From: a virus
Length of the DNA: 58,693 bases
Direction: 5' to 3' (one strand)
Virus record (IMG/VR): IMGVR_UViG_3300035698_012504
Span: 1-58,693 of that record
Shown one piece after another: positions 1 through 13,611 of this stretch (the stretch's first letter is position 1; each line of letters begins with the position of its first letter). The position numbers and the translations under genes are program-made. A model generated the notes under the pieces. The model made no database searches. It was not told the origin of the DNA and saw nothing but the letters and a program-made list of their open reading frames with translations.

Positions 1-18
1 AGAGGAATCTGTATATAG
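1..18 (+). CDS. 3' end of an upstream small-ORF array member (partial; ends ...RGICI*)
   Basis: The frame ends in RGICI followed by TAG. The same GGAGGA-spacer-ATG junction recurs throughout the array, so the array continues upstream of the window. Confidence 0.4.
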   Translation, partial: RGICI

Positions 19-26
19 GAGGATGT

Positions 27-389
27 ATGTTAGGATTAGACCCATATGTTATGGATCGATTAATTCCTATATTAAAAGATAATTTGTTCTTCAAGTATAT
101 AGTAGATAATATGGATTATAAGGAAATGGGGTGGGTTCATAATTCTATAACGTTTAGTTTCTCTACACTAGATGGCACCCTTGACATACTTATGGGAGTT
201 CATGATGAGGCAATAAGAATTGTAATCTATATGACATATTTGGATACTTTTTTAATAAAAGAAAACAATATACATTATGAAATTAGTATAAAATTCGCTG
301 ATGAGCATATGCCTGAAACAGGATTTACAATTGCTACTAATGGGTATATACATATATTAGACATTATAAGAAAAGGGATATCAATATGA
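27..389 (+). CDS. hypothetical small protein, tandem-array member (C-term RKGISI)
   Basis: 120-aa ORF with a GGAGGA Shine-Dalgarno sequence 6 nt upstream. Its stop overlaps the next start as ATGA. Confidence 0.5.
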   Translation: MLGLDPYVMDRLIPILKDNLFFKYIVDNMDYKEMGWVHNSITFSFSTLDGTLDILMGVHDEAIRIVIYMTYLDTFLIKENNIHYEISIKFADEHMPETGFTIATNGYIHILDIIRKGISI

Positions 390-808
390 TAATGGATATG
401 ATTGATACTGAAGTTAATAATGGATACCTTATTAGGCGTACATTAAATCAAACCTTAACGAAGAGTCAGATATTTAAATGGATAGCAACATATATAGAGG
501 TTGAATCGACTAGAAGTGTAAAAGTATATACTTCATTTAATAATATAGATATTATATTAACCGGCATGAAAGGACTTCATCACATAACAGTGAGTATTAC
601 TGGGAAAACTTATATAGTCGATAGATATAATCACCCTAGATTTGCACCAGATAAGATTAATCCTATTAATATTATTATGGAGTTTTATTATACAAGCCCC
701 CCTCATAAATTATTTGTTGTTAGAGATAGATGGTTTAAATACGATGTGACCCCTTCTCAACATTCAATAAATTTAACTGATATGTTAATGGGAGGAATCT
801 GTATATGA
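386..808 (+). CDS. hypothetical small protein, array member (C-term GGICI)
   Basis: ATGA-coupled at both ends. The junction is GGAGGAATCTGTATATGA. Confidence 0.5.
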   Translation: MIMDMIDTEVNNGYLIRRTLNQTLTKSQIFKWIATYIEVESTRSVKVYTSFNNIDIILTGMKGLHHITVSITGKTYIVDRYNHPRFAPDKINPINIIMEFYYTSPPHKLFVVRDRWFKYDVTPSQHSINLTDMLMGGICI

Positions 809-1116
809 TAGTTGATATGTTGACAATCGATTCATCGATGTTTGTATCCACTATGACAGAACACAGCTATAGTCTATACTTAGATAACTTAATTATATCG
901 TTTAGACCAGATAATCCTAGATATCCCCACCACCTCGTATTATCCCTCTGTTCATATGATTATGACGGAATAGATATAGAATTAATCAAATATGCAAACT
1001 TTCACTATGTTTATGAGGTAGATGTATTTGATAATATTACATTTGAACATGTAAATAATATATGTAAATCTATAATATGTACGTTGGATATTATCAGGAG
1101 AGGGATATCAGTATGA
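805..1116 (+). CDS. hypothetical small protein, array member (C-term RRGISV)
   Basis: ATGA-coupled, with the conserved junction. Confidence 0.5.
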   Translation: MIVDMLTIDSSMFVSTMTEHSYSLYLDNLIISFRPDNPRYPHHLVLSLCSYDYDGIDIELIKYANFHYVYEVDVFDNITFEHVNNICKSIICTLDIIRRGISV

Positions 1117-1535
1117 TGGGTTATGTCGGACCTATGTCAAAACAAGATAGGAAATATTTAAGCTCTTTCCCACATGATCTAAGAACTAATTTTATAGCAA
1201 GTACGCTAATACGATTTGGATTTAAAAGGAAAACAATTGAAGATATGGATAGGACTGTTTTAAATCTATCTAGTAGTTTTTATGTACCTGGATCAACATA
1301 TAGTAGAATTGTATCGATTCGTATTAATGGTAGAATGTGGAACGGATACACATATAGCCCTATACCTGAAGGGTATCATGCTAGAATAAAAATAACACTT
1401 AATGATGATGTCATGTATATAACGAGGCGAGATAGCCCGTATGTATACATATTTAGTGCTCCTCCGTGGCCTAAGAAAGGAAAAGATAAACAAATTCATT
1501 TGTTAAATATACTAAAGTTAGGAATCTGCATATGA
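1113..1535 (+). CDS. hypothetical small protein, array member (C-term LGICI)
   Basis: The start was moved to the ATG at 1113, which overlaps the previous TGA. The track's start at 1077 lies inside the preceding gene. Confidence 0.5.
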   Translation: MMGYVGPMSKQDRKYLSSFPHDLRTNFIASTLIRFGFKRKTIEDMDRTVLNLSSSFYVPGSTYSRIVSIRINGRMWNGYTYSPIPEGYHARIKITLNDDVMYITRRDSPYVYIFSAPPWPKKGKDKQIHLLNILKLGICI

Positions 1536-1759
1536 ATTACCCATCTATGAGGGAACTAAGTAGATATATAATGGATAATATAGCGATTGATGGATATAGA
1601 ATATCTAGCAATAGTAAAAATGGAATAATAGTTAATATGAATGAAACTAAGATCTCTATTTTAGATAGTGAACATTATTGGATTAGACTAGAGGATTATA
1701 ATAATAAACCTAAAAGAGTCTATCTCTTGGATATATTATCCCAAGGAGTAGTGATATGA
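1532..1759 (+). CDS. hypothetical small protein, array member (C-term QGVVI)
   Basis: ATGA-coupled. Confidence 0.5.
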   Translation: MNYPSMRELSRYIMDNIAIDGYRISSNSKNGIIVNMNETKISILDSEHYWIRLEDYNNKPKRVYLLDILSQGVVI

Positions 1760-1965
1760 AGCTTGCTCTGTTACGTGCTCTATATAATATTAATTTCACT
1801 GAGCACCTAATGGAGAATGGTGGTAATGATGTAATCTTTAAATATACAAAACCAGAAATTGATGATGATAGTAAACCATGTAGAGTATATGTTAGTGTCA
1901 CTGAGCCAAGCTATACTGGATTAGGTGGGATAAAGTGGCATTGGGACCACCAATTGATAGAGTAG
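1756..1965 (+). CDS. hypothetical small protein, array member lacking the usual tail (possible 5' half of a frameshifted gene)
   Basis: ATGA-coupled at its start. It ends ...HQLIE* without the G-x-x-I tail, and it overlaps the next ORF by 31 nt. Confidence 0.35.
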   Translation: MKLALLRALYNINFTEHLMENGGNDVIFKYTKPEIDDDSKPCRVYVSVTEPSYTGLGGIKWHWDHQLIE

Positions 1966-2126
1966 TTGTAGAACTATATCGAGATTGGGATCTATTAAGA
2001 TGTTCGTATATGTCTCTTGTAGGTATGAGTAAATTTGGATATATTTATCAGGTTACAGATGTTGATTTTAAAATCACTAAAGATATATTCATTATGGACG
2101 TCCTAAAGAGAGGAATAGTAATATGA
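1935..2126 (+). CDS. hypothetical small protein, array member (GTG start; C-term KRGIVI)
   Basis: GTG start inside the previous ORF. It may be the 3' half of one gene, 1756..2126, split by a frameshift. Confidence 0.35.
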   Translation: MALGPPIDRVVVELYRDWDLLRCSYMSLVGMSKFGYIYQVTDVDFKITKDIFIMDVLKRGIVI

Positions 2127-2329
2127 TCTTTGATAACGATAATAAGATACCATTTGAACATCAATCAAGAGTATATGAAGTTTATTTAGATGTCTATGAT
2201 ATGTTTCATGGTGGGCACGCAGTTCATCCCCTAATTATAGCAGGACTCCCATTTCATATTAACCCTTCCCACTTCAACTTTGGAAGAATAGCGAATTGGA
2301 TATATCATACAGGAGGAGTTGTAATATGA
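2123..2329 (+). CDS. hypothetical small protein, MIFDN(D/G)N subfamily (C-term TGGVVI)
   Basis: The N-terminus MIFDNDNKIPFE..VYEVY is shared with the ORFs at 3962, 6807, 7429 and 8556. Confidence 0.55.
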   Translation: MIFDNDNKIPFEHQSRVYEVYLDVYDMFHGGHAVHPLIIAGLPFHINPSHFNFGRIANWIYHTGGVVI

Positions 2330-2688
2330 GCGTCCAGCAAAGAGAAGAAGAACTATTCGATTTATTACAACGTTCAGGATTTAAGAAAAGAAGTCATCGC
2401 ACATCTATGATGGATTTTAGAGAAGAATCGTTTGATTTTGGTAACTATGTAGTAATTACTCTAAATGAAAATGGGTATATTGATGTGGAGATAGTAGATA
2501 AATTAGATATAGATAAATCGAGATACTACTATGTTAAAAGAATGGATAAAAGTAGTTTTAAAATGAGAATATATGCGAGTACTTATCCCGTGGCACCAGA
2601 ACGTATATTCGAATTTAAAATAGGAATAGATAAATTAGGAAAATTAATAAATACGTTTGATGTATTTAAACAAGGAGCAATATTATGA
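2326..2688 (+). CDS. hypothetical small protein, array member (C-term KQGAIL)
   Basis: The start was moved to the ATG at 2326, which overlaps the previous TGA. Confidence 0.5.
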   Translation: MSVQQREEELFDLLQRSGFKKRSHRTSMMDFREESFDFGNYVVITLNENGYIDVEIVDKLDIDKSRYYYVKRMDKSSFKMRIYASTYPVAPERIFEFKIGIDKLGKLINTFDVFKQGAIL

Positions 2689-2876
2689 TATACATAGATA
2701 CTATGGATCGTTATATAATTAAGAATTATGATGAGTATGTTAGTAAAATACATACAGACATACTTACCACAATCCAACATAAACTTAATAAAGGTTATGA
2801 TGAGTGGACACACTATGAATACTTTCTTAGTCGTCATCTTATAAGATCTATTAATAGCTCGAACATATGTAGTTGA
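2685..2876 (+). CDS. hypothetical small protein, array member
   Basis: ATGA-coupled at its start. There is no conserved tail, and a 26-nt spacer follows. Confidence 0.4.
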   Translation: MIYIDTMDRYIIKNYDEYVSKIHTDILTTIQHKLNKGYDEWTHYEYFLSRHLIRSINSSNICS

Positions 2877-2902
2877 ATATTTGCAAAACAAGGAGTTGTG
2901 GT

Positions 2903-3361
2903 ATGACTGAAAGAGGTATAATTAATGTATTAGATTCTTTACAATTCAACAACTCTAAAATATCTGGATCTTTTGCTGCCCCTATTAATGGAAGGGGATT
3001 TGCTCATATGAATCCAGGTCCTCCAACAGCACGATTTACATTCAGAGATAAAAATAGAATATCACTATCAACTACAATTTCAAAACCACAGATGATTGAT
3101 GTAGTATCAAGAAGAACCCATTTACTCGGAGGAATATCAAGACGTGGCCTAGTTGTAGAATGTTGGTTATACATACACTCTGATATAAATGATTATTATC
3201 TTTACTTTGTCGTACCATTTAATGAATCGACATTCACTGTTTATTTCACTCATAAATATAATGAGAAGGATAAAGATCATATTGATAGGGTTGGAACATT
3301 GTTTAGTAGATCAAAACCTATATTCATTCTAGATGTATTGAAGCGAGGAGTCGTGATATGA
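2903..3361 (+). CDS. hypothetical small protein, array member (C-term KRGVVI)
   Basis: The start was moved to the ATG at 2903, which has an AAGGAG Shine-Dalgarno sequence 7 nt upstream. Confidence 0.5.
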   Translation: MTERGIINVLDSLQFNNSKISGSFAAPINGRGFAHMNPGPPTARFTFRDKNRISLSTTISKPQMIDVVSRRTHLLGGISRRGLVVECWLYIHSDINDYYLYFVVPFNESTFTVYFTHKYNEKDKDHIDRVGTLFSRSKPIFILDVLKRGVVI

Positions 3362-3687
3362 TGTATACAGATGGATCAGATATGCTATATACATTTACAT
3401 TATCTGACGTAATAACTGGTGTAAAGGGTAGATCGTTTGATTTCATTATAAAAATAGATGAATACCCAGACTTTGTTAACAAAGGGCATACAAGATTAAA
3501 AAAAGTATCTCTTTATTTCTCAGTGTTTGGTAAAACATGTACTATTGATTGTATGTTAAACTCTAAATTCCCAAATATATTCTTATTTAATAATCTCCAT
3601 TATATTGTGTTAGTATATAACAATGGAGTTACTATGCCAACTTCAGTTAACACATTTAATATAATATCTCATGGTATCGTAATATGA
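3358..3687 (+). CDS. hypothetical small protein, array member (C-term SHGIVI)
   Basis: ATGA-coupled. Confidence 0.5.
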   Translation: MMYTDGSDMLYTFTLSDVITGVKGRSFDFIIKIDEYPDFVNKGHTRLKKVSLYFSVFGKTCTIDCMLNSKFPNIFLFNNLHYIVLVYNNGVTMPTSVNTFNIISHGIVI

Positions 3688-3965
3688 TTGTAGATACTAC
3701 TGATATGAAAGAGCTAGGTATTGGTGTATGTATCTCAGAAGGGTTATGGGTAGATACATTTCACACCAAAGATATAATGCTAACTTTATACCGTTATATA
3801 GATGGAGGATCAATTACATCCATAACTAGAGATCAGGCTGAATTGGTCAGACATCATGGTAGAGTATATACATTTGATTTATTTGATACGCATATTATAT
3901 CATCTGCTCATCATAATGGATTAATTACTCCACTCAACATGATAAAGAGAGGGATTGTAATATGA
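3684..3965 (+). CDS. hypothetical small protein, array member (C-term KRGIVI)
   Basis: ATGA-coupled. Confidence 0.5.
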   Translation: MIVDTTDMKELGIGVCISEGLWVDTFHTKDIMLTLYRYIDGGSITSITRDQAELVRHHGRVYTFDLFDTHIISSAHHNGLITPLNMIKRGIVI

Positions 3966-4189
3966 TATTTGACAACGGCAACGAGTTATTATTTGAAGAT
4001 TGTCTACCAGTGTATGATGTGTATTTTAAAATATCTGATGTTTTTGGTATACCCCTCCGTATTAAATTTCCCCTTCCAAAAAATAAATATGGAAATCCCA
4101 AAGTTTTATATTACCTTCCGACGCTCCCTAGAATACATATCTCAATAATATTTAAGTTGATATATTATAGTAAAGGAATTAATATATGA
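3962..4189 (+). CDS. hypothetical small protein, MIFDNGN subfamily (C-term SKGINI)
   Basis: MIFDNGNELLFEDCLPVYDVY. ATGA-coupled. Confidence 0.55.
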   Translation: MIFDNGNELLFEDCLPVYDVYFKISDVFGIPLRIKFPLPKNKYGNPKVLYYLPTLPRIHISIIFKLIYYSKGINI

Positions 4190-4488
4190 TATATGAAGAT
4201 ACTACAGATGCCCTAATGGGGGTGGAATATAATCCCGCAGAAGAATGTATTAAACTTAGCTATGGTAAGGAATCATTTTCACATGTAGATGTTGCTCTTT
4301 ATAGTGATGGTGGATTCGGATTTAGAATATCTAGATACCATTATATGAATATGTTGTCGTGTGTTACAGTAAAACGATCATACCGACAAAGGTTCGAATA
4401 TATATTTAAGACTGGATGCCATGAGCAATTTAGAAAGAAGCGATATGTTAATCTGATGGATATCTTCAACAGAGGAGTTCCTATATAG
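4186..4488 (+). CDS. hypothetical small protein, array member (C-term NRGVPI)
   Basis: ATGA-coupled. Confidence 0.5.
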   Translation: MIYEDTTDALMGVEYNPAEECIKLSYGKESFSHVDVALYSDGGFGFRISRYHYMNMLSCVTVKRSYRQRFEYIFKTGCHEQFRKKRYVNLMDIFNRGVPI

Positions 4489-4712
4489 TGTATGTAGATG
4501 TAAAAGTTAATATGATGCTTAGTGCCGTAATGTACAAAGATGCTGGAGATTTTCGCGACTTGTGTGTTCATAATTATACTAGACCACTAGCCATTAAACC
4601 AATTAGATATAGTGGATATGGTAGGGATATGGGTTATACAGCATACATTAGAGGTTTTAGATTTAAGGACGTATTTAACCAAGTAATGAAGAGAGGAATA
4701 GTATGGAAATAG
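4488..4712 (+). CDS. hypothetical small protein, array member (GTG start; C-term KRGIVWK)
   Basis: GTG at 4488 lies 10 nt after an AGAGGAG motif. Its stop overlaps the thyX start. Confidence 0.4.
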   Translation: MYVDVKVNMMLSAVMYKDAGDFRDLCVHNYTRPLAIKPIRYSGYGRDMGYTAYIRGFRFKDVFNQVMKRGIVWK

Positions 4713-5485
4713 TAGAACCGAAAGTATTTTTAATAGCAGAAACTAAATTAGATAATGAGGGCCTTCTTGAATATCTCAAGGATCTTAACGTATTAGATTA
4801 TAGCTGGAGTGCCCCGTCTGATTCAGAGGCGCTATGTGAGATGATGGGAAGATTGTGTTATAGATCATTCAAGCCTGGTCTTAATCCCAATGTTACAAAA
4901 GTAAGGACCGGTAATGATGTATACTTAAAGAACATTATAAACACTGGGCATGGGTCAGTTTTAGAACATGCTAGTGTAAGTTTTATATTCAAAGACGTAT
5001 CTCGAGTATTCACGCATGAGCTTGTTCGACATAGATCAGGGGTAGCTATATCTCAAGAGTCTCTTAGATTCGTTAGGTTAGATAAGCTTAGTGCGTATGT
5101 CCCGATACAGATAGAAGAGAATGAAGAAGCAATGTCTTTGTTCATGGATACGTTTGATAAACTTGAAGAGGTGCAAAAACAACTCGCTGACATTTACGAT
5201 ATAGAGAACACTGATGACTTTGCTAGGAAGAAAGAATTAACCTCTGCATTCAGGAGAGTTGCCCCTATTGGATTAGCAACTACCATAGGGTGGACATGTA
5301 ATATGCGAGCACTAAGACACATAATCGAATTAAGAACTAGCCCACATGCAGAGATAGAACTTAGAGTAGTATTCGCAAAAGTATTTGATATAGTGAAAGA
5401 TAAATACCCTAATATATTTGGAGATTATAAAGTAGAGATGGTAGATGGTATACCGTGGGTGCATACTACGGAGGAGAAGATCTAA
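4703..5485 (+). CDS. thyX: flavin-dependent thymidylate synthase ThyX
   Basis: Carries the ThyX signature RHRSGVAISQESLRFV (RHRxxxxxQxSxR) and is 260 aa. Confidence 0.9.
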   Translation: MEIVEPKVFLIAETKLDNEGLLEYLKDLNVLDYSWSAPSDSEALCEMMGRLCYRSFKPGLNPNVTKVRTGNDVYLKNIINTGHGSVLEHASVSFIFKDVSRVFTHELVRHRSGVAISQESLRFVRLDKLSAYVPIQIEENEEAMSLFMDTFDKLEEVQKQLADIYDIENTDDFARKKELTSAFRRVAPIGLATTIGWTCNMRALRHIIELRTSPHAEIELRVVFAKVFDIVKDKYPNIFGDYKVEMVDGIPWVHTTEEKI

Positions 5486-5501
5486 CATAAGGTAGTGAAT
5501 T

Positions 5502-5702
5502 ATGATATATGTTACTGGATGTATAAACTCAACGTTTTCTGAAAAGTTGATACATGAATCATTTAATAACATCTTAATATTATTAGACTTCATAGATGAT
5601 GATGATTATATGAATTATATCCTTGAGTATGGTATTAAGATTTATCCAATTTGTCCCATTCGATTTGAACTCTATTTAATTATAGACACTCCCCTCAGAT
5701 AG
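5502..5702 (+). CDS. hypothetical small protein
   Basis: 66-aa ORF directly downstream of thyX. Confidence 0.35.
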   Translation: MIYVTGCINSTFSEKLIHESFNNILILLDFIDDDDYMNYILEYGIKIYPICPIRFELYLIIDTPLR

Positions 5703-5828
5703 ATATTCATTTCACACAAAGTCCAAAAATATCTGTAGTGTATACTAGTAAAGGTATACGTGTACCAGTCATTAGCTTTCATTTAATTGATATATTTAAG
5801 AGAGGGATAGCCATATAAAGGAGATAGT

Positions 5829-6077
5829 ATGCACATAGATGAAGACGGATTATACAATGAAGTTGCTCGTTATATTAGAACAAGGAATGATTTATCATTA
5901 GGACTTACTGTTATGAATATAACAAATGGTAAATTATTAATAGTAGTAGTTAATGACCCATCTAATAGAGGAACGCGGTTTAATCATGTAGATAATCTTA
6001 AAGAAATACTACCCAAAGTAATTCATTATTTCATATTAGTGTATATGGATGTTATGAAGGAAGGAATAAATATCTAA
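5829..6077 (+). CDS. hypothetical small protein, array member (C-term KEGINI)
   Basis: Preceded by AGAGGGATAGCCATATAAAGGAG. This restarts the array after a 126-nt spacer. Confidence 0.5.
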   Translation: MHIDEDGLYNEVARYIRTRNDLSLGLTVMNITNGKLLIVVVNDPSNRGTRFNHVDNLKEILPKVIHYFILVYMDVMKEGINI

Positions 6078-6451
6078 TGGATATGTATATGAGAACTCCT
6101 TTAATAAGACCATGTAGAGAAGAATATGATCATAGTTTTAGTACGAGAATATGTCACGCATGGATAAGAACTAAAACTAATTCATTTATTCACTTCCAAG
6201 TATCTGTTTCTCCAACTAACTCTACAGACAAATTCAAGCTGATGATGTTTTTGACAACAGATGATAAAATCAATGAAATAGGGACACGGGCATGGGTAGA
6301 AGAAAAACAAATATTAAGTATAGGAGCATCTAGGATGTTTGAATTATACTATGGGACCAGACTACAAAATCCTCTTATCATTCAGGGAATTTTTAAAAAA
6401 GGGGTATGTATCAATTCGAATGATTTTTTAAACGGAGGAATCGATATATGA
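6077..6451 (+). CDS. hypothetical small protein, array member (C-term NGGIDI)
   Basis: TAATG-coupled. Confidence 0.5.
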   Translation: MDMYMRTPLIRPCREEYDHSFSTRICHAWIRTKTNSFIHFQVSVSPTNSTDKFKLMMFLTTDDKINEIGTRAWVEEKQILSIGASRMFELYYGTRLQNPLIIQGIFKKGVCINSNDFLNGGIDI

Positions 6452-6810
6452 TATTTATATCTCCACCAGAAGATGGATTATATTCAGACTCAATTGTTAG
6501 GATAGAGCTTGTACCACACTCATCTAATCGCAGATATAAATTTATTGCTAATATTCCATCTAAACTAGATGATGTTTTATGTTCAATTTACGTCAGAAAA
6601 AAATCCCCATGGTGCCGAGACGATATAATAATAATATCATTCAAGCATCATAGATGTTATTTTCAAATATCTACTTTTAGTGGGTATGAACCAACTAAAG
6701 TATTTACTAAACCTAAAGTACAAACACTAATAACTAAACAGGGATGCAAATCAGAAGAAACTTATAGGGATATGGGTAGAATGTTTAGATGTGGAGGAAT
6801 CTCAATATGA
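6448..6810 (+). CDS. hypothetical small protein, array member (C-term CGGISI)
   Basis: ATGA-coupled. Confidence 0.5.
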   Translation: MIFISPPEDGLYSDSIVRIELVPHSSNRRYKFIANIPSKLDDVLCSIYVRKKSPWCRDDIIIISFKHHRCYFQISTFSGYEPTKVFTKPKVQTLITKQGCKSEETYRDMGRMFRCGGISI

Positions 6811-7037
6811 TATTCGACAACGGTAATAAATTGTTATTTAAAGATTGCTCGTTAGTATATGACTATCTTAAATTATATAATTACATTCACCTTCACCCTC
6901 ACCTTCACCCTCACCTTCACCTTCACCCTCACCCTCACCCTCACCTTCGCCCTCACTCCCGCCTTCCCCTTCACCCTCACCTTCAACCCGAAAAATTATT
7001 TAACTGGGTGTATAATAAAGGAGGAGTTGTGATATGA
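6807..7037 (+). CDS. hypothetical His/Pro/Leu-repeat protein, MIFDNGN subfamily (C-term KGGVVI)
   Basis: MIFDNGNKLLFKDCSLVYDYLKLY followed by HLHPHLHPHLHLHPHPHPHLRPH. It is a near-identical paralog of the ORF at 8556. Confidence 0.55.
   Translation: MIFDNGNKLLFKDCSLVYDYLKLYNYIHLHPHLHPHLHLHPHPHPHLRPHSRLPLHPHLQPEKLFNWVYNKGGVVI
6886..6988. repeat. hexanucleotide microsatellite (CACCTT/CACCCT)n, about 16 units, inside the CDS at 6807
   Basis: Direct reading shows cac ctt cac cct cac ctt ... repeated about 16 times. Confidence 0.9.
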
Positions 7038-7432
7038 TATTTGATACGACGTGTGAATATAACATGTATCAGTATGCATATGGAATGACTACACGTAAGA
7101 ATACAGTGACTAGAGAACATACTAGAATTACTATCCGTTCTCTTAGAGGTTATTGTTTCACATTCGAAAATCTAAGACATCCTCCGAAAGAATATGAAGG
7201 GCATTTTATATCGAGGGACGTTGAAGAGTTTTTAATAATTTATAAAGTAGATAGGATTACAGATGTTTATTACGATTTTATAAGAATAGGGAAAGTAGTG
7301 AGAGGGAAGAATCATTTAGTACGAAATGGAAAGAGAGAAATAATAATAACAACTGGTGTAAATCATACTACATCTGTTCCCAATGTATGTACAATTATAT
7401 TGGCGCTTTGTAGGAAAGGAACAGTCATATGA
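7034..7432 (+). CDS. hypothetical small protein, array member (C-term RKGTVI)
   Basis: ATGA-coupled. Confidence 0.5.
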   Translation: MIFDTTCEYNMYQYAYGMTTRKNTVTREHTRITIRSLRGYCFTFENLRHPPKEYEGHFISRDVEEFLIIYKVDRITDVYYDFIRIGKVVRGKNHLVRNGKREIIITTGVNHTTSVPNVCTIILALCRKGTVI

Positions 7433-7647
7433 TATTTGATAATGATAATAAAATGTTGATCGGAGATCCTACTAAAGCTTATAATACATATTGTTATATT
7501 AATACTCACACATGGGCAATTCAATATCTTAGTATGCATCTTCATACTAAATATCTTAATCTTACTCTTTTCCCACATTCTCGATTCCATCCTAGATTAG
7601 GAACCACATACAAATGGATAATTGAAAATAAAGGGGTCGTGATATGA
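7429..7647 (+). CDS. hypothetical small protein, MIFDNDN subfamily (C-term NKGVVI)
   Basis: MIFDNDNKMLIGD. ATGA-coupled. Confidence 0.5.
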   Translation: MIFDNDNKMLIGDPTKAYNTYCYINTHTWAIQYLSMHLHTKYLNLTLFPHSRFHPRLGTTYKWIIENKGVVI

Positions 7648-8006
7648 TATTTGAATCGGTTAACATTGATTTGTTTTGGAGAGATGGATTACATTTGAGA
7701 ACATTAAAACATGGTTATACCCACTTCTTTAGAGAAACTTACGTTGATAAAATATTTATGCATGATACATTTATAGGAGATTTATTACTCGAATGTATCC
7801 TTGTCAACCATATAGATTATATAAGAATACGAATTCCAACATTTCCATATAGATCCATGACATATAAATTTGATATGGGTACCGAGATACTCATTCGATT
7901 TGGATCTGGTAATATATTCTGTACGCAGACAAGTAAAAAAGAAGAAAAAATTAAGTGGTTTCAATTTGGAACTTTAGATATCATGACTAGAGGGGTAGTT
8001 ATATGA
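7644..8006 (+). CDS. hypothetical small protein, array member (C-term TRGVVI)
   Basis: Its MIFESV N-terminus is shared with the ORF at 9960. Confidence 0.5.
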   Translation: MIFESVNIDLFWRDGLHLRTLKHGYTHFFRETYVDKIFMHDTFIGDLLLECILVNHIDYIRIRIPTFPYRSMTYKFDMGTEILIRFGSGNIFCTQTSKKEEKIKWFQFGTLDIMTRGVVI

Positions 8007-8251
8007 TTTATGTATATGATGCATCAGATTCATTACAAGGTATAAGATTAGATGATATTGAATTTTATATATCATCGGATGCAGTATGTGATATGTGTAA
8101 GAGAACAGATATTATGTGTGATAATCAATGTGCTATTTACTTTAATTCATGGCCATTTACAGAGGTGACCAAAGAGTTTTATGTTCCACCACGACCAACC
8201 ATCCCTCTTATGTATAATTGGGTGAGGAGACAGATAGGAGCTGTTGTATGA
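8003..8251 (+). CDS. hypothetical small protein, array member (C-term QIGAVV)
   Basis: ATGA-coupled. Confidence 0.5.
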   Translation: MIYVYDASDSLQGIRLDDIEFYISSDAVCDMCKRTDIMCDNQCAIYFNSWPFTEVTKEFYVPPRPTIPLMYNWVRRQIGAVV

Positions 8252-8559
8252 TATATTTTACAAATGACACCCAGGGCGGGATGCAACAACATAATATAGA
8301 TGTCTACGTTAAAGATGTGTTACAGTTTTATAGACAAATCTATGATTTTGAACCTTACTATAATATACTAGATCCTATATTAAAGTATGCCCCAATATGT
8401 AGATATACTAGAGATGCTATATTATTTACACAAGAGGTATCCCCTGGTCTTTTTGGGGTTGTGATTAAAGAAGAACATCAAGAATTTCATGGAGTTAAAG
8501 TTACATTGTCTTTTATATGTGGATGGGTAATGCATCAACAACAAGGAGTAATTATATGA
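8248..8559 (+). CDS. hypothetical small protein, array member (C-term QQGVII)
   Basis: The start was moved to the ATG at 8248, which overlaps the previous TGA. Confidence 0.5.
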   Translation: MIYFTNDTQGGMQQHNIDVYVKDVLQFYRQIYDFEPYYNILDPILKYAPICRYTRDAILFTQEVSPGLFGVVIKEEHQEFHGVKVTLSFICGWVMHQQQGVII

Positions 8560-8786
8560 TGTTTGATAACGGTAATAAATTGTTATTTAAAGATTGCTCG
8601 TTAGTATATGACTATCTTAAATTATATGATTACATTCACCTTCACCTTCACCTTCACCCTCACCTTCACCCTCACCTTCACCTTCTCCCTCACCTTCTCC
8701 CTCACCCCCGCCTTTCCCTTCACCCTCACCTTCAACCCGAAAAATTATTTAACTGGGTGTATAATAGAGGAGGAGTAATAATATAA
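8556..8786 (+). CDS. hypothetical His/Leu/Pro-repeat protein, MIFDNGN subfamily (paralog of 6807)
   Basis: MMFDNGNKLLFKDCSLVYDYLKLYDYIHLHLHLHPHLHPH... The ends are near-identical to 6807..7037 and the repeat count differs. Confidence 0.55.
   Translation: MMFDNGNKLLFKDCSLVYDYLKLYDYIHLHLHLHPHLHPHLHLLPHLLPHPRLSLHPHLQPEKLFNWVYNRGGVII
8634..8738. repeat. hexanucleotide microsatellite (CACCTT/CACCCT/CTCCCT)n, second copy
   Basis: Direct reading. The unit order and count differ from the 6886..6988 copy. Confidence 0.9.
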
Positions 8787-8881
8787 TGTATGTAGATTGT
8801 ATGGATAAGGATATTTATCCAGAAGCCATTTAATTAGGATGTTCAAATACATATGATAAGAGTGGAGATACATGCGATCTA

Positions 8882-9139
8882 ATGTTTTGCAACTTCAGTG
8901 AAAAACATCCATATGAATTTCTTATGAAATTAGGAATATCTGATATAAGAATAAAAATATCATATCCAGTTGGAGAGCGAAGAGTAGTTAATTTAATGAT
9001 ACTTGGACTAAAGAGCGGTGATGGAATATATGTAAAGTTCAGCGCACTGAAGACAATAACAATTATGTCTGAAGATGGGGAACGCAAATGGAATGATTAC
9101 ATGGGTTGGTTTTTACAGCAAGGTATATATATTAAATAG
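8882..9139 (+). CDS. hypothetical small protein (C-term QQGIYIK)
   Basis: 85-aa ORF that follows a 95-nt spacer containing the small hairpin GGATAAGGATATTTATCC. Confidence 0.4.
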   Translation: MFCNFSEKHPYEFLMKLGISDIRIKISYPVGERRVVNLMILGLKSGDGIYVKFSALKTITIMSEDGERKWNDYMGWFLQQGIYIK

Positions 9140-9692
9140 TGACAGAAGGAATCTATTTCACACAACCAAAAAGGAGAGAAGTGTGAAGAATATTCATTGG
9201 CCCAAGGCGTGCATCTATATTTTTCTTTTACTGTTTTTATTACTTGCTAATGGGGAAATTGTAGGCGAGTTGAAAAGACCTATAATAGAATCCCAATTGA
9301 GTGCTGCGATAACAATTCCAGTTGTTATATTAGGTTTAAGTCAGAGCATATTCTTGGGATGGCTCATCGGGGCCATCGTCTGCTCATCTATAGGATTTAT
9401 GAATAATCCAATTGAACGTGTAATTGAAGAATTTGATAAAAAAGGAATACGAGCATATTATACAAATATGATATCTTTTTACGGGCTCATTATATTAACA
9501 CCATATAATTTATTTCTGTACTTTTGGCCAGTAGACGCAACTACTACGTTTATATTTGGAAACATTATGTTTTGGGCTGTATCTAGTATTATAATTTATA
9601 AGAATCTATGGGAGAACGTGAAGATTGACAACTTGGTTAAGGAGTGGTTCTTATGCAAGCCCTATCAGATATGTTTAAAATCTCAAAGCTAG
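9075..9692 (+). CDS. small integral membrane protein (4 to 5 predicted TM segments)
   Basis: Hydrophobic stretches IYIFLLLFLLLA, ITIPVVILGLSQSIFLGWLIGAIV and FYGLIILTPYNLFLYFWP. The start is uncertain; a GTG at 9183 follows AAGGAGAG. Confidence 0.5.
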   Translation: MGNANGMITWVGFYSKVYILNSDRRNLFHTTKKERSVKNIHWPKACIYIFLLLFLLLANGEIVGELKRPIIESQLSAAITIPVVILGLSQSIFLGWLIGAIVCSSIGFMNNPIERVIEEFDKKGIRAYYTNMISFYGLIILTPYNLFLYFWPVDATTTFIFGNIMFWAVSSIIIYKNLWENVKIDNLVKEWFLCKPYQICLKSQS

Positions 9693-9949
9693 CAGTCGCT
9701 GTATTCATTCTAATAAATGTACTACATGTATTGATGTTTGTTGTAGCTATACCTATAGTAGTTATGTTGTACACTAAACTTAAGCTTATGGGAACTATCC
9801 CAGAGGATGGGATTATACCACTTATAGTATTATTTGGGGGTGGTGCTACTGTTGGCTTAGCATTTTCGTCTATGAAAAAGAAAATTTTAGAGTGTGTGGT
9901 ACCTGAATCTATGCATAATGAAAATAACCCGATAGTGGATGAACTATAA
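9653..9949 (+). CDS. small membrane protein (2 to 3 TM segments)
   Basis: AAGGAG Shine-Dalgarno sequence, then ATG at 9653. Hydrophobic stretches LAVAVFILINVLHVLMFVVAIPIVVML and IIPLIVLFGGGATVGLAF. Confidence 0.5.
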   Translation: MQALSDMFKISKLAVAVFILINVLHVLMFVVAIPIVVMLYTKLKLMGTIPEDGIIPLIVLFGGGATVGLAFSSMKKKILECVVPESMHNENNPIVDEL

Positions 9950-9959
9950 GGATAAATCC

Positions 9960-10289
9960 ATGATATTTGAATCTGTTAAATCTATTAGCCCATTTAATAG
10001 TAGTAATATAACTAAATACCCATTTGGAGAATCTTTAGTAACATGTCAAGTAGATTATAATCTTAGAAAGAAGTTTAGGATAGGGATAACTGTAATAAAT
10101 CATAACACATATTATAAAGAAAAGGTAATTGTGATTTCCTATTTCCAAACAGATGGTAAGATTAGAAGTGCTGAAATAGGGCCTATACAAAAATCATCAT
10201 TTAGATCCTATTTTACCACTAAAATTATTACACATGGTGAAATCATTAATGCTTTTCTTAAACTGACGGGTAATGGAATAAGTATATGA
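9960..10289 (+). CDS. hypothetical small protein, array member (MIFESV...; C-term GNGISI)
   Basis: Start at the ATG at 9960 after AAGGA. Ends in the conserved junction. Confidence 0.5.
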   Translation: MIFESVKSISPFNSSNITKYPFGESLVTCQVDYNLRKKFRIGITVINHNTYYKEKVIVISYFQTDGKIRSAEIGPIQKSSFRSYFTTKIITHGEIINAFLKLTGNGISI

Positions 10290-10414
10290 TAGTAGATGGG
10301 TTAATCATGGGATCCAACTCATCAGAAGTTAGACTTCAAAAAATGATAATATCTGGTAGCCTCAAACCAGGACAAGAATATATATCTATTATTGATCTTA
10401 CAAAAAAAGAGTAG
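10286..10414 (+). CDS. hypothetical 42-aa peptide, array member (MIVDG...)
   Basis: ATGA-coupled to the ORF at 9960. Too short to appear in the ORF track. Confidence 0.3.
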   Translation: MIVDGLIMGSNSSEVRLQKMIISGSLKPGQEYISIIDLTKKE

Positions 10415-10482
10415 TATTTTTCATTAGATTTTATGGTGCGCTGGTCTCAGGGCCATTTGATCCACATCAATCCTATATCTCG

Positions 10483-10611
10483 GTGAGCAGATACATAGAG
10501 ATCGTAGATGTAGACGGTGGATTTAAATTAAAATATATACGAGAAAAATTTAAAACACTATTGATTGGAAATCTATACATTATGATATCGAAACGAGGGA
10601 TTCTAATATAA
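10483..10611 (+). pseudogene. decayed array member (GTG start, no Shine-Dalgarno sequence; ends SKRGILI*)
   Basis: 42-codon frame that ends with the array's tail motif immediately before AAAGGAGAGAAAATG of the next gene. Confidence 0.25.
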
Positions 10612-10621
10612 AGGAGAGAAA

Positions 10622-11548
10622 ATGACAGGCCGTAATGTAGATATCGCGGAACTATTATCTAGAGTAAAATCAACACTCTCTACTAATGTAGATGAGACTA
10701 TTGACATTCCTACCATTGCTGAACCAGAACCACCGAGGGCAAAGAAGTCTACAATTTCTAGAATTAAAGATAGTGGGTTATCCATAATATTAAATCCAAA
10801 GAATATATTGGGTCGATATAGAGTTAGACCAAATCATAGATTGTCTGCTTTGGGAGTAGATGCCGAGGATATACCATCTGTTAATAAATTTGAAAGAATA
10901 GATAGTATTTTTAGAAATGATAATGAGCACGATAGAATTGATATTGAGCTACTTCAATTAAAGATGGATCTCGCAGCAGGTACAGTAAAAGCAGTTGAAC
11001 CCAAATCATCAGAGAAGGTGATATATTTATCCCCTACTGTCCCTAGTGAACTTGATAGCTCATTATACTCATATGATGATCAAGAAGATCAATTAATGGA
11101 ATTTTCAAAATACTATTGCGAATGCGCCATTGAGAATGGATGGAAGATATTATTAAATACATCAAGTGCTGATCCAATAATATGGAGAAAACTTAGAGAT
11201 ATGTTTGGAGATAATATAATCCTAGCAGATGGTAATAGTCTGCGTCAAAGTGTAGTAGATAATGGATGTAAAATATTATTCATTGCAGGAGGAAGTACAG
11301 GAGCAGTTAACGATATTGAACGGATATATGATGAATGGAATACATATCAGTGTGGAAGCACAATTATATATCATGCCGTTTCATTTGGCGGAGTATATGA
11401 TGTGAATGGCGAAATAATTTATTCTCTTGGAGGAGAAGGAGTAGAATATATAAGGGACATTACAGATTCTCGTCATAGATCTCCAATGAGTAGAGCTATT
11501 ATGAGTAAGTTTTTTGAATTTGTCACAGAAAGATACTCTAGGTTTTAG
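10622..11548 (+). CDS. hypothetical protein with a C-terminal Rossmann-like segment (GCKILFIAGGSTGAVNDIER)
   Basis: 308-aa ORF with an AAGGAGAG Shine-Dalgarno sequence. Its GC content is visibly higher than the flanking sequence. Confidence 0.5.
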   Translation: MTGRNVDIAELLSRVKSTLSTNVDETIDIPTIAEPEPPRAKKSTISRIKDSGLSIILNPKNILGRYRVRPNHRLSALGVDAEDIPSVNKFERIDSIFRNDNEHDRIDIELLQLKMDLAAGTVKAVEPKSSEKVIYLSPTVPSELDSSLYSYDDQEDQLMEFSKYYCECAIENGWKILLNTSSADPIIWRKLRDMFGDNIILADGNSLRQSVVDNGCKILFIAGGSTGAVNDIERIYDEWNTYQCGSTIIYHAVSFGGVYDVNGEIIYSLGGEGVEYIRDITDSRHRSPMSRAIMSKFFEFVTERYSRF

Positions 11549-11560
11549 GAGAGAAACGCA

Positions 11561-12328
11561 ATGAGAAGGAAAGAAGTGTTTGTCATAGGGCTTGGAAATC
11601 CTGGGAACGCGGCCTCAATAGATTCTAGGCATAACGTTGGACAACTTGCCGTCGGTAGAGCACTTGCAATATATGGTGACTTACGTCCTCCAGGATCTGA
11701 GTCTCATAGGGACCGAATACAAAATGAAGATATTAAATTAAAATTGAGAAGAGCACCTATGTCAGTAAAAGATACAAGTATATTAAAATTTGGAGAGAAT
11801 CGAAGATCATATAAATATTACAGATCAACCGTGCTGCTCTATGGAATGACCATCAATTTTATAGAACCGGTTAATGTATATATGAACAGTTCTGGAAGAT
11901 TTATACGTGCGCTTAGATTAGATACAGATGAGTTTCTAGAAAATTTACTTATTATTCATGATGATATAGATTTACCAATTGGACGAGTGAGATTCCGTAC
12001 TGGGGGAGGGGACGGGGGACACAATGGAATAAAGAATATACGAGTAAATTTAGGAGATGATTTCTCTAGATTAAAAGTAGGAGTTGGAAGACCAACAGAT
12101 GATACAGTAGAACAATATCTAACTAGAGAAATGTCACTTAAACATAGGAAGCATATTAATAAGGTAATAGATACTATATTGAAAAAGTGTATGCTCGATT
12201 GGGCATTATATGGAACAGCGCATTGTTCTGTTAAGTACAACAAACTATTTGTTAATGGAAGTGGTAATGTTACTACATGGAAGAAACATCAAAAGGAGCT
12301 TGAAGAACTTGTGCGAAAAGAAGTCTGA
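11561..12328 (+). CDS. pth: peptidyl-tRNA hydrolase (Pth family) with an internal ~40-aa insertion
   Basis: GLGNPG...SRHNVG (Pth motif 1), VYMNSSG, IIHDDIDLPIGRVRFRTGGGDGGHNGIKNI (compare E. coli [28 protein letters not shown]) and LKVGVGRP. Confidence 0.85.
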   Translation: MRRKEVFVIGLGNPGNAASIDSRHNVGQLAVGRALAIYGDLRPPGSESHRDRIQNEDIKLKLRRAPMSVKDTSILKFGENRRSYKYYRSTVLLYGMTINFIEPVNVYMNSSGRFIRALRLDTDEFLENLLIIHDDIDLPIGRVRFRTGGGDGGHNGIKNIRVNLGDDFSRLKVGVGRPTDDTVEQYLTREMSLKHRKHINKVIDTILKKCMLDWALYGTAHCSVKYNKLFVNGSGNVTTWKKHQKELEELVRKEV

Positions 12329-12839
12329 AGACACACCAACTAATGCATTAAAAGAAATGATTGAAAAACGCGGGGAGATATCTGGAATGGCCCAAAAGAG
12401 CTCCAATGTAATAAGAATAATGATGTCTCTATTGGCATCAAGAGCATTGGATGTTTCAAATTCTATGGCAGCCCTTCATGCAGTGAATGATTTGTATGAC
12501 GGCGACACAGAAGAAGCTATGAAAAGTAGACGGAATGAGTATGTGAAACAATATCTATTAGCAGTTAAGTCATTTAAATCATTAGAAAGAAAAATACATG
12601 ACGATGTTGCTCCAACATTTTTTGATAATGTTGCAGTGCTTTTTCCAGATGAAATATTCACGTTGTTCCGAGATGAGATGTTAGTATATAAGGAAAGAGA
12701 ATTAGGGTTACCTGTTGACCCATCAGAAGTCCCATCACTTGATGAAATGAGAGCATTCTTTAATGTATTTCCAGAAGAGTCATTACGAAGTAGTATAAAT
12801 GATAGTTTTAGTCCACTTACTGGATCAGATGAAGATTAA
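12210..12839 (+). CDS. hypothetical protein (true start probably near 12358)
   Basis: The ORF overlaps the 3' end of pth. The internal start MIEKRG at 12358 lies after the pth stop. Confidence 0.4.
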   Translation: MEQRIVLLSTTNYLLMEVVMLLHGRNIKRSLKNLCEKKSEDTPTNALKEMIEKRGEISGMAQKSSNVIRIMMSLLASRALDVSNSMAALHAVNDLYDGDTEEAMKSRRNEYVKQYLLAVKSFKSLERKIHDDVAPTFFDNVAVLFPDEIFTLFRDEMLVYKERELGLPVDPSEVPSLDEMRAFFNVFPEESLRSSINDSFSPLTGSDED

Positions 12840-12854
12840 GAAGTAATTATTCGT

Positions 12855-12886
12855 GTCTGGGGCTCTCTAGTTAGAGGGTCCCAGAC
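12855..12886 (+). terminator. candidate stem-loop terminator (GTCTGGGGCTCTC-TAGTTA-GAGGGTCCCAGAC)
   Basis: Imperfect inverted repeat of about 12 bp directly after a stop codon. The T-tract is weak. Confidence 0.35.
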
Positions 12887-12995
12887 ATAATTAGCAGTAT
12901 CAACAATAAATATATTATTTTTTATTGTTGAAAATATAATGAGGACAAACTATTAGATGTATGATAGTTCGAAGTTACAATGTGAGGAGAGTAAA

Positions 12996-13595: not shown

Positions 13596-13611
13596 GAAAA
13601 AGGAGTAGAAA

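What the first reader, a model, noticed from the sequence alone, without database searches (positions are those of the whole stretch)
6807..8786. Hexanucleotide microsatellite (CACCTT/CACCCT)n encoding HLHPH tracts, in two paralogs with different unit counts
Two array members (6807..7037 and 8556..8786) have near-identical 5' (~95 nt) and 3' (~60 nt) ends. Between them is a perfect-to-imperfect hexamer repeat, about 16 units in the first copy and about 17 in the second, with differing unit order. It translates as HLHPHLHPHLHLHPHPHPHLRPH. A unit length of 6 keeps slippage in frame, so copy number can drift without gene loss. That is a classic contingency or length-variable design. His-rich tracts could also bind metal. 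The two copies are ~250 bp of near-identity 1.7 kb apart, which is a ready substrate for deleting the five intervening ORFs.
Basis: seen in the sequence. Interest (0 to 1): 0.55.

Follow-up and report, generated by a model that had tools for sequence, protein, structure and literature searches.

The report
In-frame His-rich hexamer repeat, duplicated phage gene
Two copies of a tiny, phage-specific gene each carry the same-length imperfect (CAC-CYT) six-base repeat that encodes a histidine/leucine/proline stretch. The repeat is real, but it shows no length variation and looks like an ordinary, now-stable coding microsatellite rather than a switch.

Summary
The repeat is real. All 23 matches to CACCYTCACCYT in the 58.7-kb window fall in the two tracts, against 0.57 expected by chance. 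Both tracts lie inside 231-nt ORFs (6807-7037 and 8556-8786) that align without gaps at 92% identity.

They differ by 17 point differences, 8 of them in the tract.

The H-L/P frame is the coding frame. It alone joins the N- and C-terminal modules shared with three non-repetitive paralogs (2123, 3962, 7429). The 3' "degenerate units" match paralog 7429 (PHSR) through synonymous third-position differences.

All 25 His codons in the tracts are CAC, which makes up 20% of His codons genome-wide. That points to origin by slippage.

The tract is interrupted: at most 4 identical units in a row. It is identical in nine contigs from seven assembly or run accessions, but that population is clonal. No homolog exists anywhere else searched.

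Verdict: a frozen coding microsatellite forming a His-rich linker in a duplicated ORFan cassette of a 28-gene translationally coupled array. The contingency reading is unsupported, metal binding is untested, and deletion between the copies is plausible but not observed.

The parts
6807..7037 (+). Copy A: 76-aa ORF MIFDNGNKLLFKDCSLVYDYLKLYNYI-(H-L/P tract)-QPEKLFNWVYNKGGVVI. Its ATG overlaps the upstream stop (ATGA) and its TGA overlaps the next ATG.
   Evidence: The exact protein was called as a gene in JGI contig L120. The SD GGAGGA lies at 6793-6798, 8 nt before the ATG.
6888..6947 (+). Copy A, pure expanded part: 10 units of CACCTT/CACCCT in the order T C T C T T C C C T.
6948..6989 (+). 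Copy A, 3' 'degenerate units' (CGCCCT CACTCC CGCCTT CCCCTT CACCCT CACCTT CAACCC = RPHSRLPLHPHLQP). This is probably ancestral non-repeat sequence that seeded the expansion.
   Evidence: It aligns with paralog 7429 'FPHSRFHPRL'. The PHSR codons differ only at third positions.
8556..8786 (+). Copy B: 76-aa ORF, 84% amino-acid and 92% nucleotide identity to A. It ends in TAA, which overlaps the ATG of a 15-codon remnant ORF.
   Evidence: The SD AAGGAG lies at 8543-8548.
8637..8738 (+). Copy B tract: 8 pure units (T T T C T C T T; 8637-8684), then CTCCCT CACCTT CTCCCT CACCCC CGCCTT TCCCTT CACCCT CACCTT CAACCC.
7429..7647 (+). Non-repetitive paralog of 72 aa (MIFDNDNKML...MHLHT...LFPHSRFHPRL...KWIIENKGVVI), lying between the two copies.
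   Evidence: P0002.
2123..2329 (+). Non-repetitive paralog of 68 aa with 7 His (10%).
   Evidence: P0003.
3962..4189 (+). Non-repetitive paralog of 75 aa, Pro-rich centre, 1 His.
   Evidence: P0001.
7034..8559 (+). The five intervening array ORFs: 7034-7432, 7429-7647, 7644-8006, 8003-8251 and 8248-8559. All are joined by ATGA overlaps.
   Evidence: They are present and unchanged in every contig that spans both copies.
1..10611 (+). Context: an array of 28 small + strand ORFs that starts 969 nt upstream of the window. They share a C-terminal motif (...LDILKRG[IV]x[IV]*) and stop/start overlaps. The array is interrupted by thyX (4703-5485).

Best explanation
The tract is a protein-coding, in-frame, imperfect hexanucleotide repeat, (CAC-CYT)n.

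Origin (inferred). It arose by replication slippage or 12-nt unit duplication inside the already His/Pro/Leu-rich central linker of a 68-76-aa small protein. The expansion replaced about 60 nt of linker without changing overall protein length.

The protein (shown). It has a conserved 27-aa N-terminal module (MIFDN[GD]N[KE]...) and a conserved 15-aa C-terminal module (...NW[IV]Y..GGVVI). The family has five paralogs and is found only in this phage genotype. The paralogs sit in a 28-gene array of translationally coupled small ORFs in an uncultured phage with T4-like replication genes and about 31% GC.

Duplication (boundaries shown, mechanism inferred). The expanded gene cassette was copied as a unit, from one SD/ATGA gene junction to the next, giving copies A and B. 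They now differ by about 7%.

Present state (shown). The tract is a 'frozen' microsatellite. It is interrupted, it has equal length in both paralogs, and it is invariant in every available assembly.

Product (inferred). A roughly 33-residue segment of alternating His and Leu/Pro, probably disordered, that acts as a spacer between the two terminal modules.

Function (speculative). Weak divalent-metal binding or pH sensitivity is possible.

It is not an on/off or length-switching contingency device.
For: - Non-random repeat: 23 pattern hits against 0.57 expected by chance. TRF scores are 109-135.
- Frame: only the H-L/P frame joins the ATG/SD to the stop that overlaps the next gene. Only this frame joins the N- and C-terminal modules shared by five paralogs of 68-76 aa.
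- Other frames: the (PS)n frame and the minus-strand (GE)n frame have no start codon. A third minus-strand frame contains a stop.
- The 3' part of the tract is homologous to paralog 7429. PHSR is kept through synonymous third-position differences.
- Slippage origin: all 13 and all 12 His codons in the tracts are CAC, while the genome uses CAT 80% of the time. The tract is 57-60% GC, against about 31% for the window.
- His enrichment predates the repeat: 7 of 68 residues (P about 9e-4) and 5 of 72 in non-repeat paralogs, against a 2.3% background.
- Stability: gapless alignment of A and B at equal length. Perfect runs reach at most 4 units. Nine contigs from seven accessions are 100% identical to the window.
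- Logan contig breaks at 6988 and 8597 are exactly what k=31 predicts from the exact stretches shared by A and B.
- Cassette-level duplication: identity starts and stops at the junction motifs, and the flanking genes are unrelated.
- ORFan status: the profile search of 1.84 billion representatives returned only the window's own paralogs. Nothing was found in Pfam, PHROGs, 50,697 phage records, or the viral and metagenome scans.
Against: - All 8 tract differences between A and B are non-synonymous and mostly radical in the H-L/P frame (L/P x4, H/L, R/L, S/P, P/S). There are no third-position changes. The residue identities in the tract therefore look unconstrained.
- Gene callers disagree. The ENA annotations call nothing at A or B. 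JGI called a 35-aa minus-strand ORF in two contigs.
- The AF2 model is uninformative: pLDDT 48.7.
- There is no expression or peptide evidence.
- The same 35-nt block lies 12 nt further 3' in B than in A. A +12/-12 pair of slippage events (4 events in total) explains the first 11 units as well as 6 substitutions do. Some slippage since the duplication cannot be excluded.
- Invariance among assemblies comes from a clonal population, with 0 SNPs in 18 kb.
Confidence: 0.7

Rival explanations
1. Contingency or length-variable locus. The hexamer tract slips frequently, so the phage population carries many protein-length variants that selection can draw on.
For: - A unit of 6 keeps the frame.
- Unit order differs between A and B.
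- A 12-nt register shift of a 35-nt block is compatible with past slippage.
Against: - A and B have equal length after about 7% divergence.
- Perfect runs reach at most 4 units at period 6 and 2.9 units at period 12.
- The sequence is identical in nine contigs from seven accessions. Contig breaks are explained by the A/B duplication, not by heterogeneity.
- The tract lies in mid-ORF and cannot switch expression.
- Classical contingency tracts act by frameshift or by changing promoter spacing (PMC5320596).
Confidence: 0.08
2. Decaying or functionless cassette. A and B are non-functional leftovers of cassette duplication, and the tract is neutral junk kept open only because a 6-nt unit cannot break the frame.
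For: - All 8 tract substitutions are non-synonymous and radical.
- Gene callers often skip the ORFs.
- It is an ORFan with no homologs.
- A truncated 15-codon remnant sits immediately after copy B.
Against: - After 17 substitutions both copies keep the start codon, the SD, the full frame and the stop/start overlap.
- The flank substitutions are 4 synonymous and 4 mostly conservative replacements, plus a stop-to-stop change.
- Five paralogs keep the same terminal modules and a length of 68-76 aa.
Confidence: 0.13
3. Nucleic-acid-level element. The C-rich, G-poor tract would act as RNA (repeated UCACCU resembles the 16S 3' end and could mask SD sequences or bind a protein) or as DNA (i-motif or G-quadruplex on the complementary strand, or an array of protein-binding sites). 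On this view its coding is incidental.
For: - Extreme composition: C 56-58% and G 1-2%, in a window of about 31% GC.
- The residue identities appear unconstrained.
- The minimum-free-energy folds pair part of the tract with the downstream GGAGGAG.
Against: - The folds are no more stable than shuffled sequence (z +0.44 and -0.04).
- There is no Rfam match.
- There is no promoter or terminator signal above chance.
- C3 runs are irregularly spaced and differ between A and B.
- Copy B is followed only by a 15-codon remnant, so there is no downstream gene to regulate.
Confidence: 0.06
4. The tract is read in another frame. Candidates are (PS)n after a -1 frameshift, the nested (TF/TL)n ORF at 6859-7032 and 8608-8778, or (GE)n on the minus strand, as in most other viruses that carry this DNA repeat.
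For: - In 119 viral contigs with the same hexamer, the longest ORF through it reads (GE)n in 61 and (PS)n in 51, and H-L/P in only 3.
- 6 of the 8 A/B tract differences are synonymous in the PS and GE phase (my reading).
- The TF-frame ORF has an ATG in both copies.
Against: - The PS and GE frames are only 40-43 codons long, lack any start codon, and PS is closed by a TAA 8 nt before the tract.
- I see no canonical slippery heptamer (read).
- There is no SD before the TF-frame ATG.
- Nearly all genes are on the + strand.
- Paralog homology on both sides of the tract, and within its 3' part, is in the H-L/P frame.
Confidence: 0.03

Closest known systems
Coding microsatellites and low-complexity regions in prokaryotic and phage proteins (survey: PMC6821194)
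   Same: An in-frame tandem nucleotide repeat makes a low-complexity segment of about 33 aa. That equals the mean length of phage low-complexity regions in the survey. Codon homogeneity points to slippage.
   Different: Phage low-complexity regions are typically rich in Ala, Gly and Pro, and hydrophobic residues such as Leu are depleted in them. This tract is 36-39% His, 24-36% Leu and 18-24% Pro. It sits in a 76-aa ORFan.
Bacterial contingency loci (SSR-mediated phase variation; e.g. Neisseria, PMC5320596, PMC5084427)
   Same: A simple sequence repeat inside a coding region, and in principle slipped-strand mispairing.
   Different: A unit of 6 cannot shift the frame. The tract is interrupted. 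No length polymorphism was found. It is a phage gene, not a bacterial surface or restriction-modification gene.
His-rich metal-binding tails and loops (Hpn, SlyD and HypB tails, CobW-type His/Asp regions, (HX)n loops of ZIP/CDF transporters). From my own knowledge and PMC6821194.
   Same: High His density with an alternating H-X pattern, as in (HX)n loops.
   Different: There are no acidic residues in the tract. The partner residues are Leu and Pro. There is no sequence relationship to any such family. Metal binding is untested.
Hyperplastic regions of T4-type phages, where conserved inter-gene motifs (PeSLs) mediate cassette shuffling (PMC2839356, PMC4122927)
   Same: A dense array of small ORFan genes next to nucleotide-metabolism and replication genes. 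A short motif recurs at every gene boundary, and the duplication endpoints of A and B coincide with those motifs.
   Different: The junction here is SD + ATATGA, a stop/start overlap for translational coupling. It is not an early promoter plus stem-loop. No promoter or terminator signal exceeds chance.
(GE)n and (PS)n linkers encoded by the same DNA hexamer in other viral contigs
   Same: The same (CACCYT)n DNA repeat.
   Different: No flank homology. A different reading frame or strand is used in 112 of 119 contigs.

Membership tests
Coding (in-frame) microsatellite / low-complexity region | Tandem short-unit repeat far beyond chance | tested here: met
   TRF finds 16.7 copies with scores 109-135. 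There are 23 pattern hits against 0.57 expected.
Coding (in-frame) microsatellite / low-complexity region | Lies inside an ORF, in the frame that joins conserved flanking protein sequence | tested here: met
   The N- and C-terminal modules are shared with three non-repeat paralogs in the same frame. Start and stop overlap the neighbouring genes.
Coding (in-frame) microsatellite / low-complexity region | Codon homogeneity, indicating a nucleotide-level origin | tested here: met
   All 25 His codons in the tracts are CAC, against 20% CAC genome-wide.
Contingency locus (SSR phase or length variation) | Long uninterrupted repeat tract prone to slippage | tested here: not met
   The longest perfect run is 23-24 nt (about 4 units) at period 6 and 35 nt (2.9 units) at period 12.
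Contingency locus (SSR phase or length variation) | A change in tract length switches expression, by frameshift or promoter spacing | tested here: not met
   The unit is 6 nt and the tract is in mid-ORF.
Contingency locus (SSR phase or length variation) | Length polymorphism among genomes or within populations | tested here: inconclusive
   No variation between the paralogs, or among nine contigs from seven accessions. Those assemblies are clonal consensus sequences, and reads were not available.
His-rich metal-binding low-complexity tails | His fraction of roughly one third or more over 20 or more residues | tested here: met
   13 of 33 and 12 of 33 residues are His.
His-rich metal-binding low-complexity tails | Acidic co-ligand residues (Asp/Glu) typical of Co/Ni-binding low-complexity regions (PMC6821194) | tested here: not met
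   There are no D or E residues in either tract.
His-rich metal-binding low-complexity tails | Homology to a known metal-handling family | tested here: not met
   No Pfam or PHROGs hit at E <= 0.1. The profile search finds only self.
His-rich metal-binding low-complexity tails | Demonstrated metal binding | not testable with these tools
   Needs a peptide plus ITC or IMAC.
T4-type hyperplastic-region cassette flanked by PeSLs | Early promoter plus stem-loop motif at the cassette boundaries | tested here: not met
   56 promoter-like sites against 72 expected, and 1 terminator-like site against 3.3 expected. The junction logo is SD GG + ATATGA.
T4-type hyperplastic-region cassette flanked by PeSLs | Cluster of small lineage-specific ORFs beside conserved core genes | tested here: met
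   28 small ORFs lie next to thyX, with a clamp loader and RNR downstream. The clamp loader is about 33-36% identical over the full length to T4-like cyanophage homologs.

The most novel reading that the evidence does not exclude
The alternating (His-Leu/Pro)n segment is a functional, length-constrained module. It could be a Zn/Ni-binding or pH-responsive 'histidine ladder', perhaps self-assembling like designed LHLHLRL-type Zn-binding peptides (my own recollection, not checked here). It would sit in a phage-specific family of early small proteins. The equal length of A and B would then reflect compensated +12/-12 slippage under stabilising selection. This would be a previously undescribed class of phage host-interaction factor generated de novo by microsatellite expansion.
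Probability: 0.08. Interest if true: 0.5.

Novelty: new member of a known kind. Interest (0 to 1): 0.2.

Why it matters
It matters little beyond being a tidy example. It shows microsatellite expansion writing new protein sequence into a fast-evolving ORFan family of phage small genes. It also shows the same DNA hexamer, which other viruses mostly read as Gly-Glu or Pro-Ser linkers, being read here as His-Leu/Pro. If the His tract did bind metal or sense pH, it would be a new kind of small phage effector, but nothing here shows that. The surrounding 28-gene coupled array with a shared C-terminal motif is the more unusual feature of this region.

Tried and rejected
1. Looking for relatives to compare tract length. 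All of these found nothing beyond the same genotype:
- megablast and tblastn against 50,697 phage records;
- a DNA flank pattern and peptide-pattern scans of viral contigs;
- the word-based protein search;
- the exhaustive profile search of 1.84 billion representatives.

2. The hexamer pattern itself hit at least 119 viral contigs. They share only the repeat, with no flank homology, and mostly use another frame. They are unrelated.

3. RNA structure and RNA family. The folds are no better than shuffles and there is no Rfam hit in the tract.

4. Promoter and terminator scan: nothing above chance.

5. Structure prediction from the five-paralog alignment gave pLDDT 48.7, too poor for a fold search.

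6. Contig ends as a sign of heterogeneity.
- The ends at 6988, 8597 and 6848 are explained by k=31 overlaps with the exact stretches shared by A and B.
- The shared end at 8516 in L124 and L127 is most simply the same reads at low coverage.

7. More tract copies upstream: none in the 10 kb before the window.

8. The sample identifiers were not found in the paper library, so the environment remains unidentified.
Full report
**1. What is there**

- The window is AT-rich (about 31% GC), and nearly all ORFs of 150 aa or more are on the + strand.
- It encodes ThyX (4703-5485), a clamp loader, a class I-like ribonucleotide reductase and an HNH/homing endonuclease.
- The clamp loader is only 33-36% identical over its full length to those of T4-like cyanophages, a Pelagibacter myophage and a Ralstonia jumbo phage.
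- No phage record matches at the DNA level.
- It is therefore a large, uncultured phage with T4-like replication genes.
- Contig k141_424224 overlaps the window only up to position 18657 and runs 56 kb further upstream. The genome is therefore at least about 115 kb.

**2. The observation**

- ORFs 6807-7037 (A) and 8556-8786 (B) are both exactly 231 nt.
- They form a 239-nt direct repeat, 6805-7043 against 8554-8792. It is 92% identical, has no gaps, and the start-to-start spacing is 1749 nt.
- TRF reports a period-6 array of 16.7 copies in each: 6886-6985 and 8635-8734.
- The pattern CACCYTCACCYT with up to 1 mismatch occurs 23 times in the window. All hits are in the two tracts, and 0.57 are expected from shuffles.
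- The tracts are 57-60% GC, with C at 56-58% and G at 1-2%.
- The repeat and the paralogy are therefore real.
- The stated difference in unit number (about 16 against about 17) is not real. The copies have the same number of units and differ by 17 substitutions: 4 in the 5' 81 nt, 8 in the 102-nt tract and 5 in the 3' 48 nt.
- Written as T = CACCTT and C = CACCCT:
  - A begins T C T C T T C C C T;
  - B begins T T T C T C T T, followed by CTCCCT.

**3. Which frame is read**

- The H-L/P frame starts at an ATG that overlaps the upstream stop (ATGA). An SD precedes it by 8 nt (GGAGGA at 6793-6798; AAGGAG at 8543-8548).
- In A, this frame ends in a TGA that overlaps the next ATG.
- Three further ORFs of the same array are paralogs of 68-75 aa: 2123-2329, 3962-4189 and 7429-7647.
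  - They share the N-terminal MIFDN[GD]N[KE]..F..D....VY module.
  - They share the C-terminal ..NW[IV]Y..GGVVI module.
  - They lack the repeat.
- Since both modules are in one frame, the tract between them must be read as H-L/P.
- In the DNA alignment, the 3' 'degenerate units' of A (CGC CCT CAC TCC CGC CTT...) align with FPHSRFHPRL of paralog 7429. The four PHSR codons differ only at third positions.
  - That part is therefore ancestral sequence, not decayed repeat.
  - The true expansion is the 10 pure units at 6888-6947 in A, and 8 pure units in B.
  - It replaces a stretch of about equal length in the paralog.
- The alternatives are weak:
  - the + strand (PS)n frame (40 codons) and the minus-strand (GE)n frame (43 codons) have no start codon;
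  - a third minus-strand frame has a stop inside the tract;
  - a nested (TF/TL)n ORF (6859-7032, 8608-8778) has an ATG but no SD.
- The minus-strand 35-37-aa KVRVK ORF, which JGI called in two contigs, is an artefact of the repeat.

**4. Origin**

- All 13 (A) and all 12 (B) His codons of the tract are CAC. In 27 long ORFs of the window, His is CAT in 80% of cases.
- Together with the GC content, this points to a nucleotide-level expansion of a CAC-CYT seed, by slippage or 12-nt duplication. It does not point to selection for His residue by residue.
- His enrichment nevertheless predates the expansion:
  - paralog 2123 has 7 His in 68 aa (binomial P about 9e-4 at the 2.3% background);
  - paralog 7429 has 5 His in 72 aa;
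  - paralog 3962 has 1.
- Identity between A and B begins and ends at the gene junction motifs, and the genes on either side are unrelated. One cassette was therefore duplicated as a unit.

**5. Is it length-variable?**

- Exact-protein look-ups recovered contigs from seven accessions:
  - ENA ERZ27315536, ERZ27315667 and ERZ27316076;
  - JGI 3300022890 and 3300023257;
  - Logan SRR5581654 and SRR7528472.
- Nine of these contigs (L120-L127 and L129) were compared with the window. All are 100% identical over their whole length, up to 18 kb.
- Copy A (6 contigs) and copy B (5 contigs) each show 0 mismatches and the same flank-to-flank distance.
- The three contigs that span both copies keep all five intervening ORFs.
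- Logan contig ends at 6988, 8597 and 6848 fall exactly k-1 = 30 nt into the 60-nt and 51-nt exact stretches shared by A and B. They reflect the duplication, not heterogeneity.
- The tract is interrupted. The longest perfect run is 23-24 nt at period 6 and 35 nt at period 12.
- Caveats:
  - the population is clonal, so this is a weak test of long-term stability;
  - how many distinct biological samples the seven accessions represent is unknown;
  - the identical 35-nt block lies 12 nt further 3' in B than in A. A +12/-12 pair of indels plus 2 substitutions explains the first 11 units as well as 6 substitutions do.
- Either way, net length has been conserved.

**6. Selection**

- In the flanks, the A/B differences are 4 synonymous and 4 mostly conservative replacements, plus TGA to TAA.
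- In the tract, all 8 differences are non-synonymous in the H-L/P frame, and none is at a third codon position.
- Four are simple swaps between the two unit types.
- The identity of the non-His residues therefore seems unconstrained. This fits a spacer whose length matters more than its exact sequence: the paralogs are 68, 72, 75, 76 and 76 aa.

**7. Other levels of function**

- RNA folds of both copies are no more stable than shuffles (z +0.44 and -0.04).
- Rfam finds nothing in the tracts.
- Promoter-like and terminator-like sites are at or below chance.
- AF2 on the five-paralog alignment is unreliable at pLDDT 48.7. It shows helices at 14-28 and 61-71 and coil for the tract.

**8. Comparison with what is known**

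- The family is an ORFan.
  - An exhaustive profile search of 1.84 billion representatives returned only the window's own three non-repeat paralogs and two unrelated repetitive proteins.
  - Pfam and PHROGs gave nothing.
  - tblastn of the phage collection gave nothing at E <= 1.
  - Four peptide-pattern scans of the viral and metagenome collections gave nothing.
- The same DNA hexamer is common in viral contigs, in at least 119 of them. There it has no flank homology. It is read as (GE)n on the other strand in 61 contigs, as (PS)n in 51, and as H-L/P in only 3.
- Compared with surveyed phage low-complexity regions (mean 33 aa; rich in Ala, Gly and Pro; Leu depleted; PMC6821194), this tract has a typical length and an atypical composition.
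- Compared with His-rich Co/Ni-binding low-complexity regions (about 53% His, 23% Asp, 9% Glu; PMC6821194), it lacks acidic residues altogether.
- Compared with contingency loci (PMC5320596), it fails on three counts: tract purity, switching logic, and polymorphism, as far as polymorphism could be tested.
- The array resembles the hyperplastic regions of T4-type phages. Its junctions are SD + ATATGA overlaps, not PeSL promoter/stem-loop motifs (PMC2839356, PMC4122927).

**9. Verdict**

- This is a real but ordinary feature: a frozen, in-frame, imperfect hexanucleotide repeat that forms a His/Leu/Pro linker in a duplicated ORFan cassette.
- The contingency interpretation is not supported.
- Metal binding is an open and weakly motivated possibility.
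- Deletion of the five intervening ORFs by recombination between the copies is mechanistically plausible but not observed.

Noticed in passing
window 1-10611, starting 969 nt upstream of the window (L130 about 9005-20363): There are 28 small + strand ORFs (about 63-162 aa), almost all joined by ATGA stop/start overlaps. All end in ...[LF][DN][IV][LI][KR][RK]G[IV]x[IV]*, and many start MI[FYV][DE]. No ORF in the remaining 48 kb has this C-terminus. The junction logo is GG (SD) at -14/-13 plus ATATGA. The upstream 'LDIL' part is conserved at the protein level. thyX interrupts the array. This family and its coupling are more unusual than the microsatellite.
   Followed up: partly
window 8786-8833: A 15-codon ORF (MYVDCMDKDIYPEAI*) lies directly after copy B. 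Its start region is 82% identical over about 30 nt to the start of the 74-aa gene at 4488-4712. It looks like a truncated cassette left by the rearrangement that placed copy B. The regular array is broken from here to about 9939.
   Followed up: partly
L124 811-918 (-), L125 1024-1131 (-); gaps in L121 at 8808-9032 and 10557-10922: Public gene calls handle the tract genes inconsistently. JGI called copy A as a 76-aa + strand gene in one contig. In two other contigs it called a 35-aa minus-strand (KVRVK) ORF. The ENA annotations call nothing at A or B. These genes are therefore mostly absent from protein databases.
   Followed up: yes
L001-L119 (IMG/VR contigs): The same (CACCYT)n hexamer occurs in at least 119 unrelated viral contigs, including giant-virus MAGs. 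The longest ORF through it reads (GE)n on the opposite strand in 61 contigs and (PS)n in 51. H-L/P is used in only 3 (L001, L034, L112).
   Followed up: partly
window 6859-7032 and 8608-8778: A nested + strand ORF with an ATG in both copies encodes alternating Thr-Phe/Leu (MTILNYIITFTFTLTF...). In this frame the A/B tract differences are conservative (F/L, T/S, A/S) or synonymous. There is no SD upstream, so it is probably not expressed.
   Followed up: partly
window 11561-12328: A 255-aa ORF carries a precomputed Pfam hit to peptidyl-tRNA hydrolase (PF01195) in the public annotation of the matching contig. I think this is an uncommon gene for a phage.
   Followed up: no
window 40573-43803 and 46574-48415: The ribonucleotide reductase ORF is 1076 aa, but the PHROG match comes in two stretches, the best covering only residues 22-488. 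A 613-aa HNH/homing-endonuclease ORF lies nearby. This may indicate an intein or a mobile-element insertion.
   Followed up: no
window 8516 (ends of L124 and L127): A JGI contig and a Logan contig both stop at exactly window position 8516, 40 nt before copy B. They may come from the same sample. k-mer sharing between A and B does not explain this. The likeliest cause is the same low-coverage reads, but a minor structural variant there cannot be excluded.
   Followed up: no
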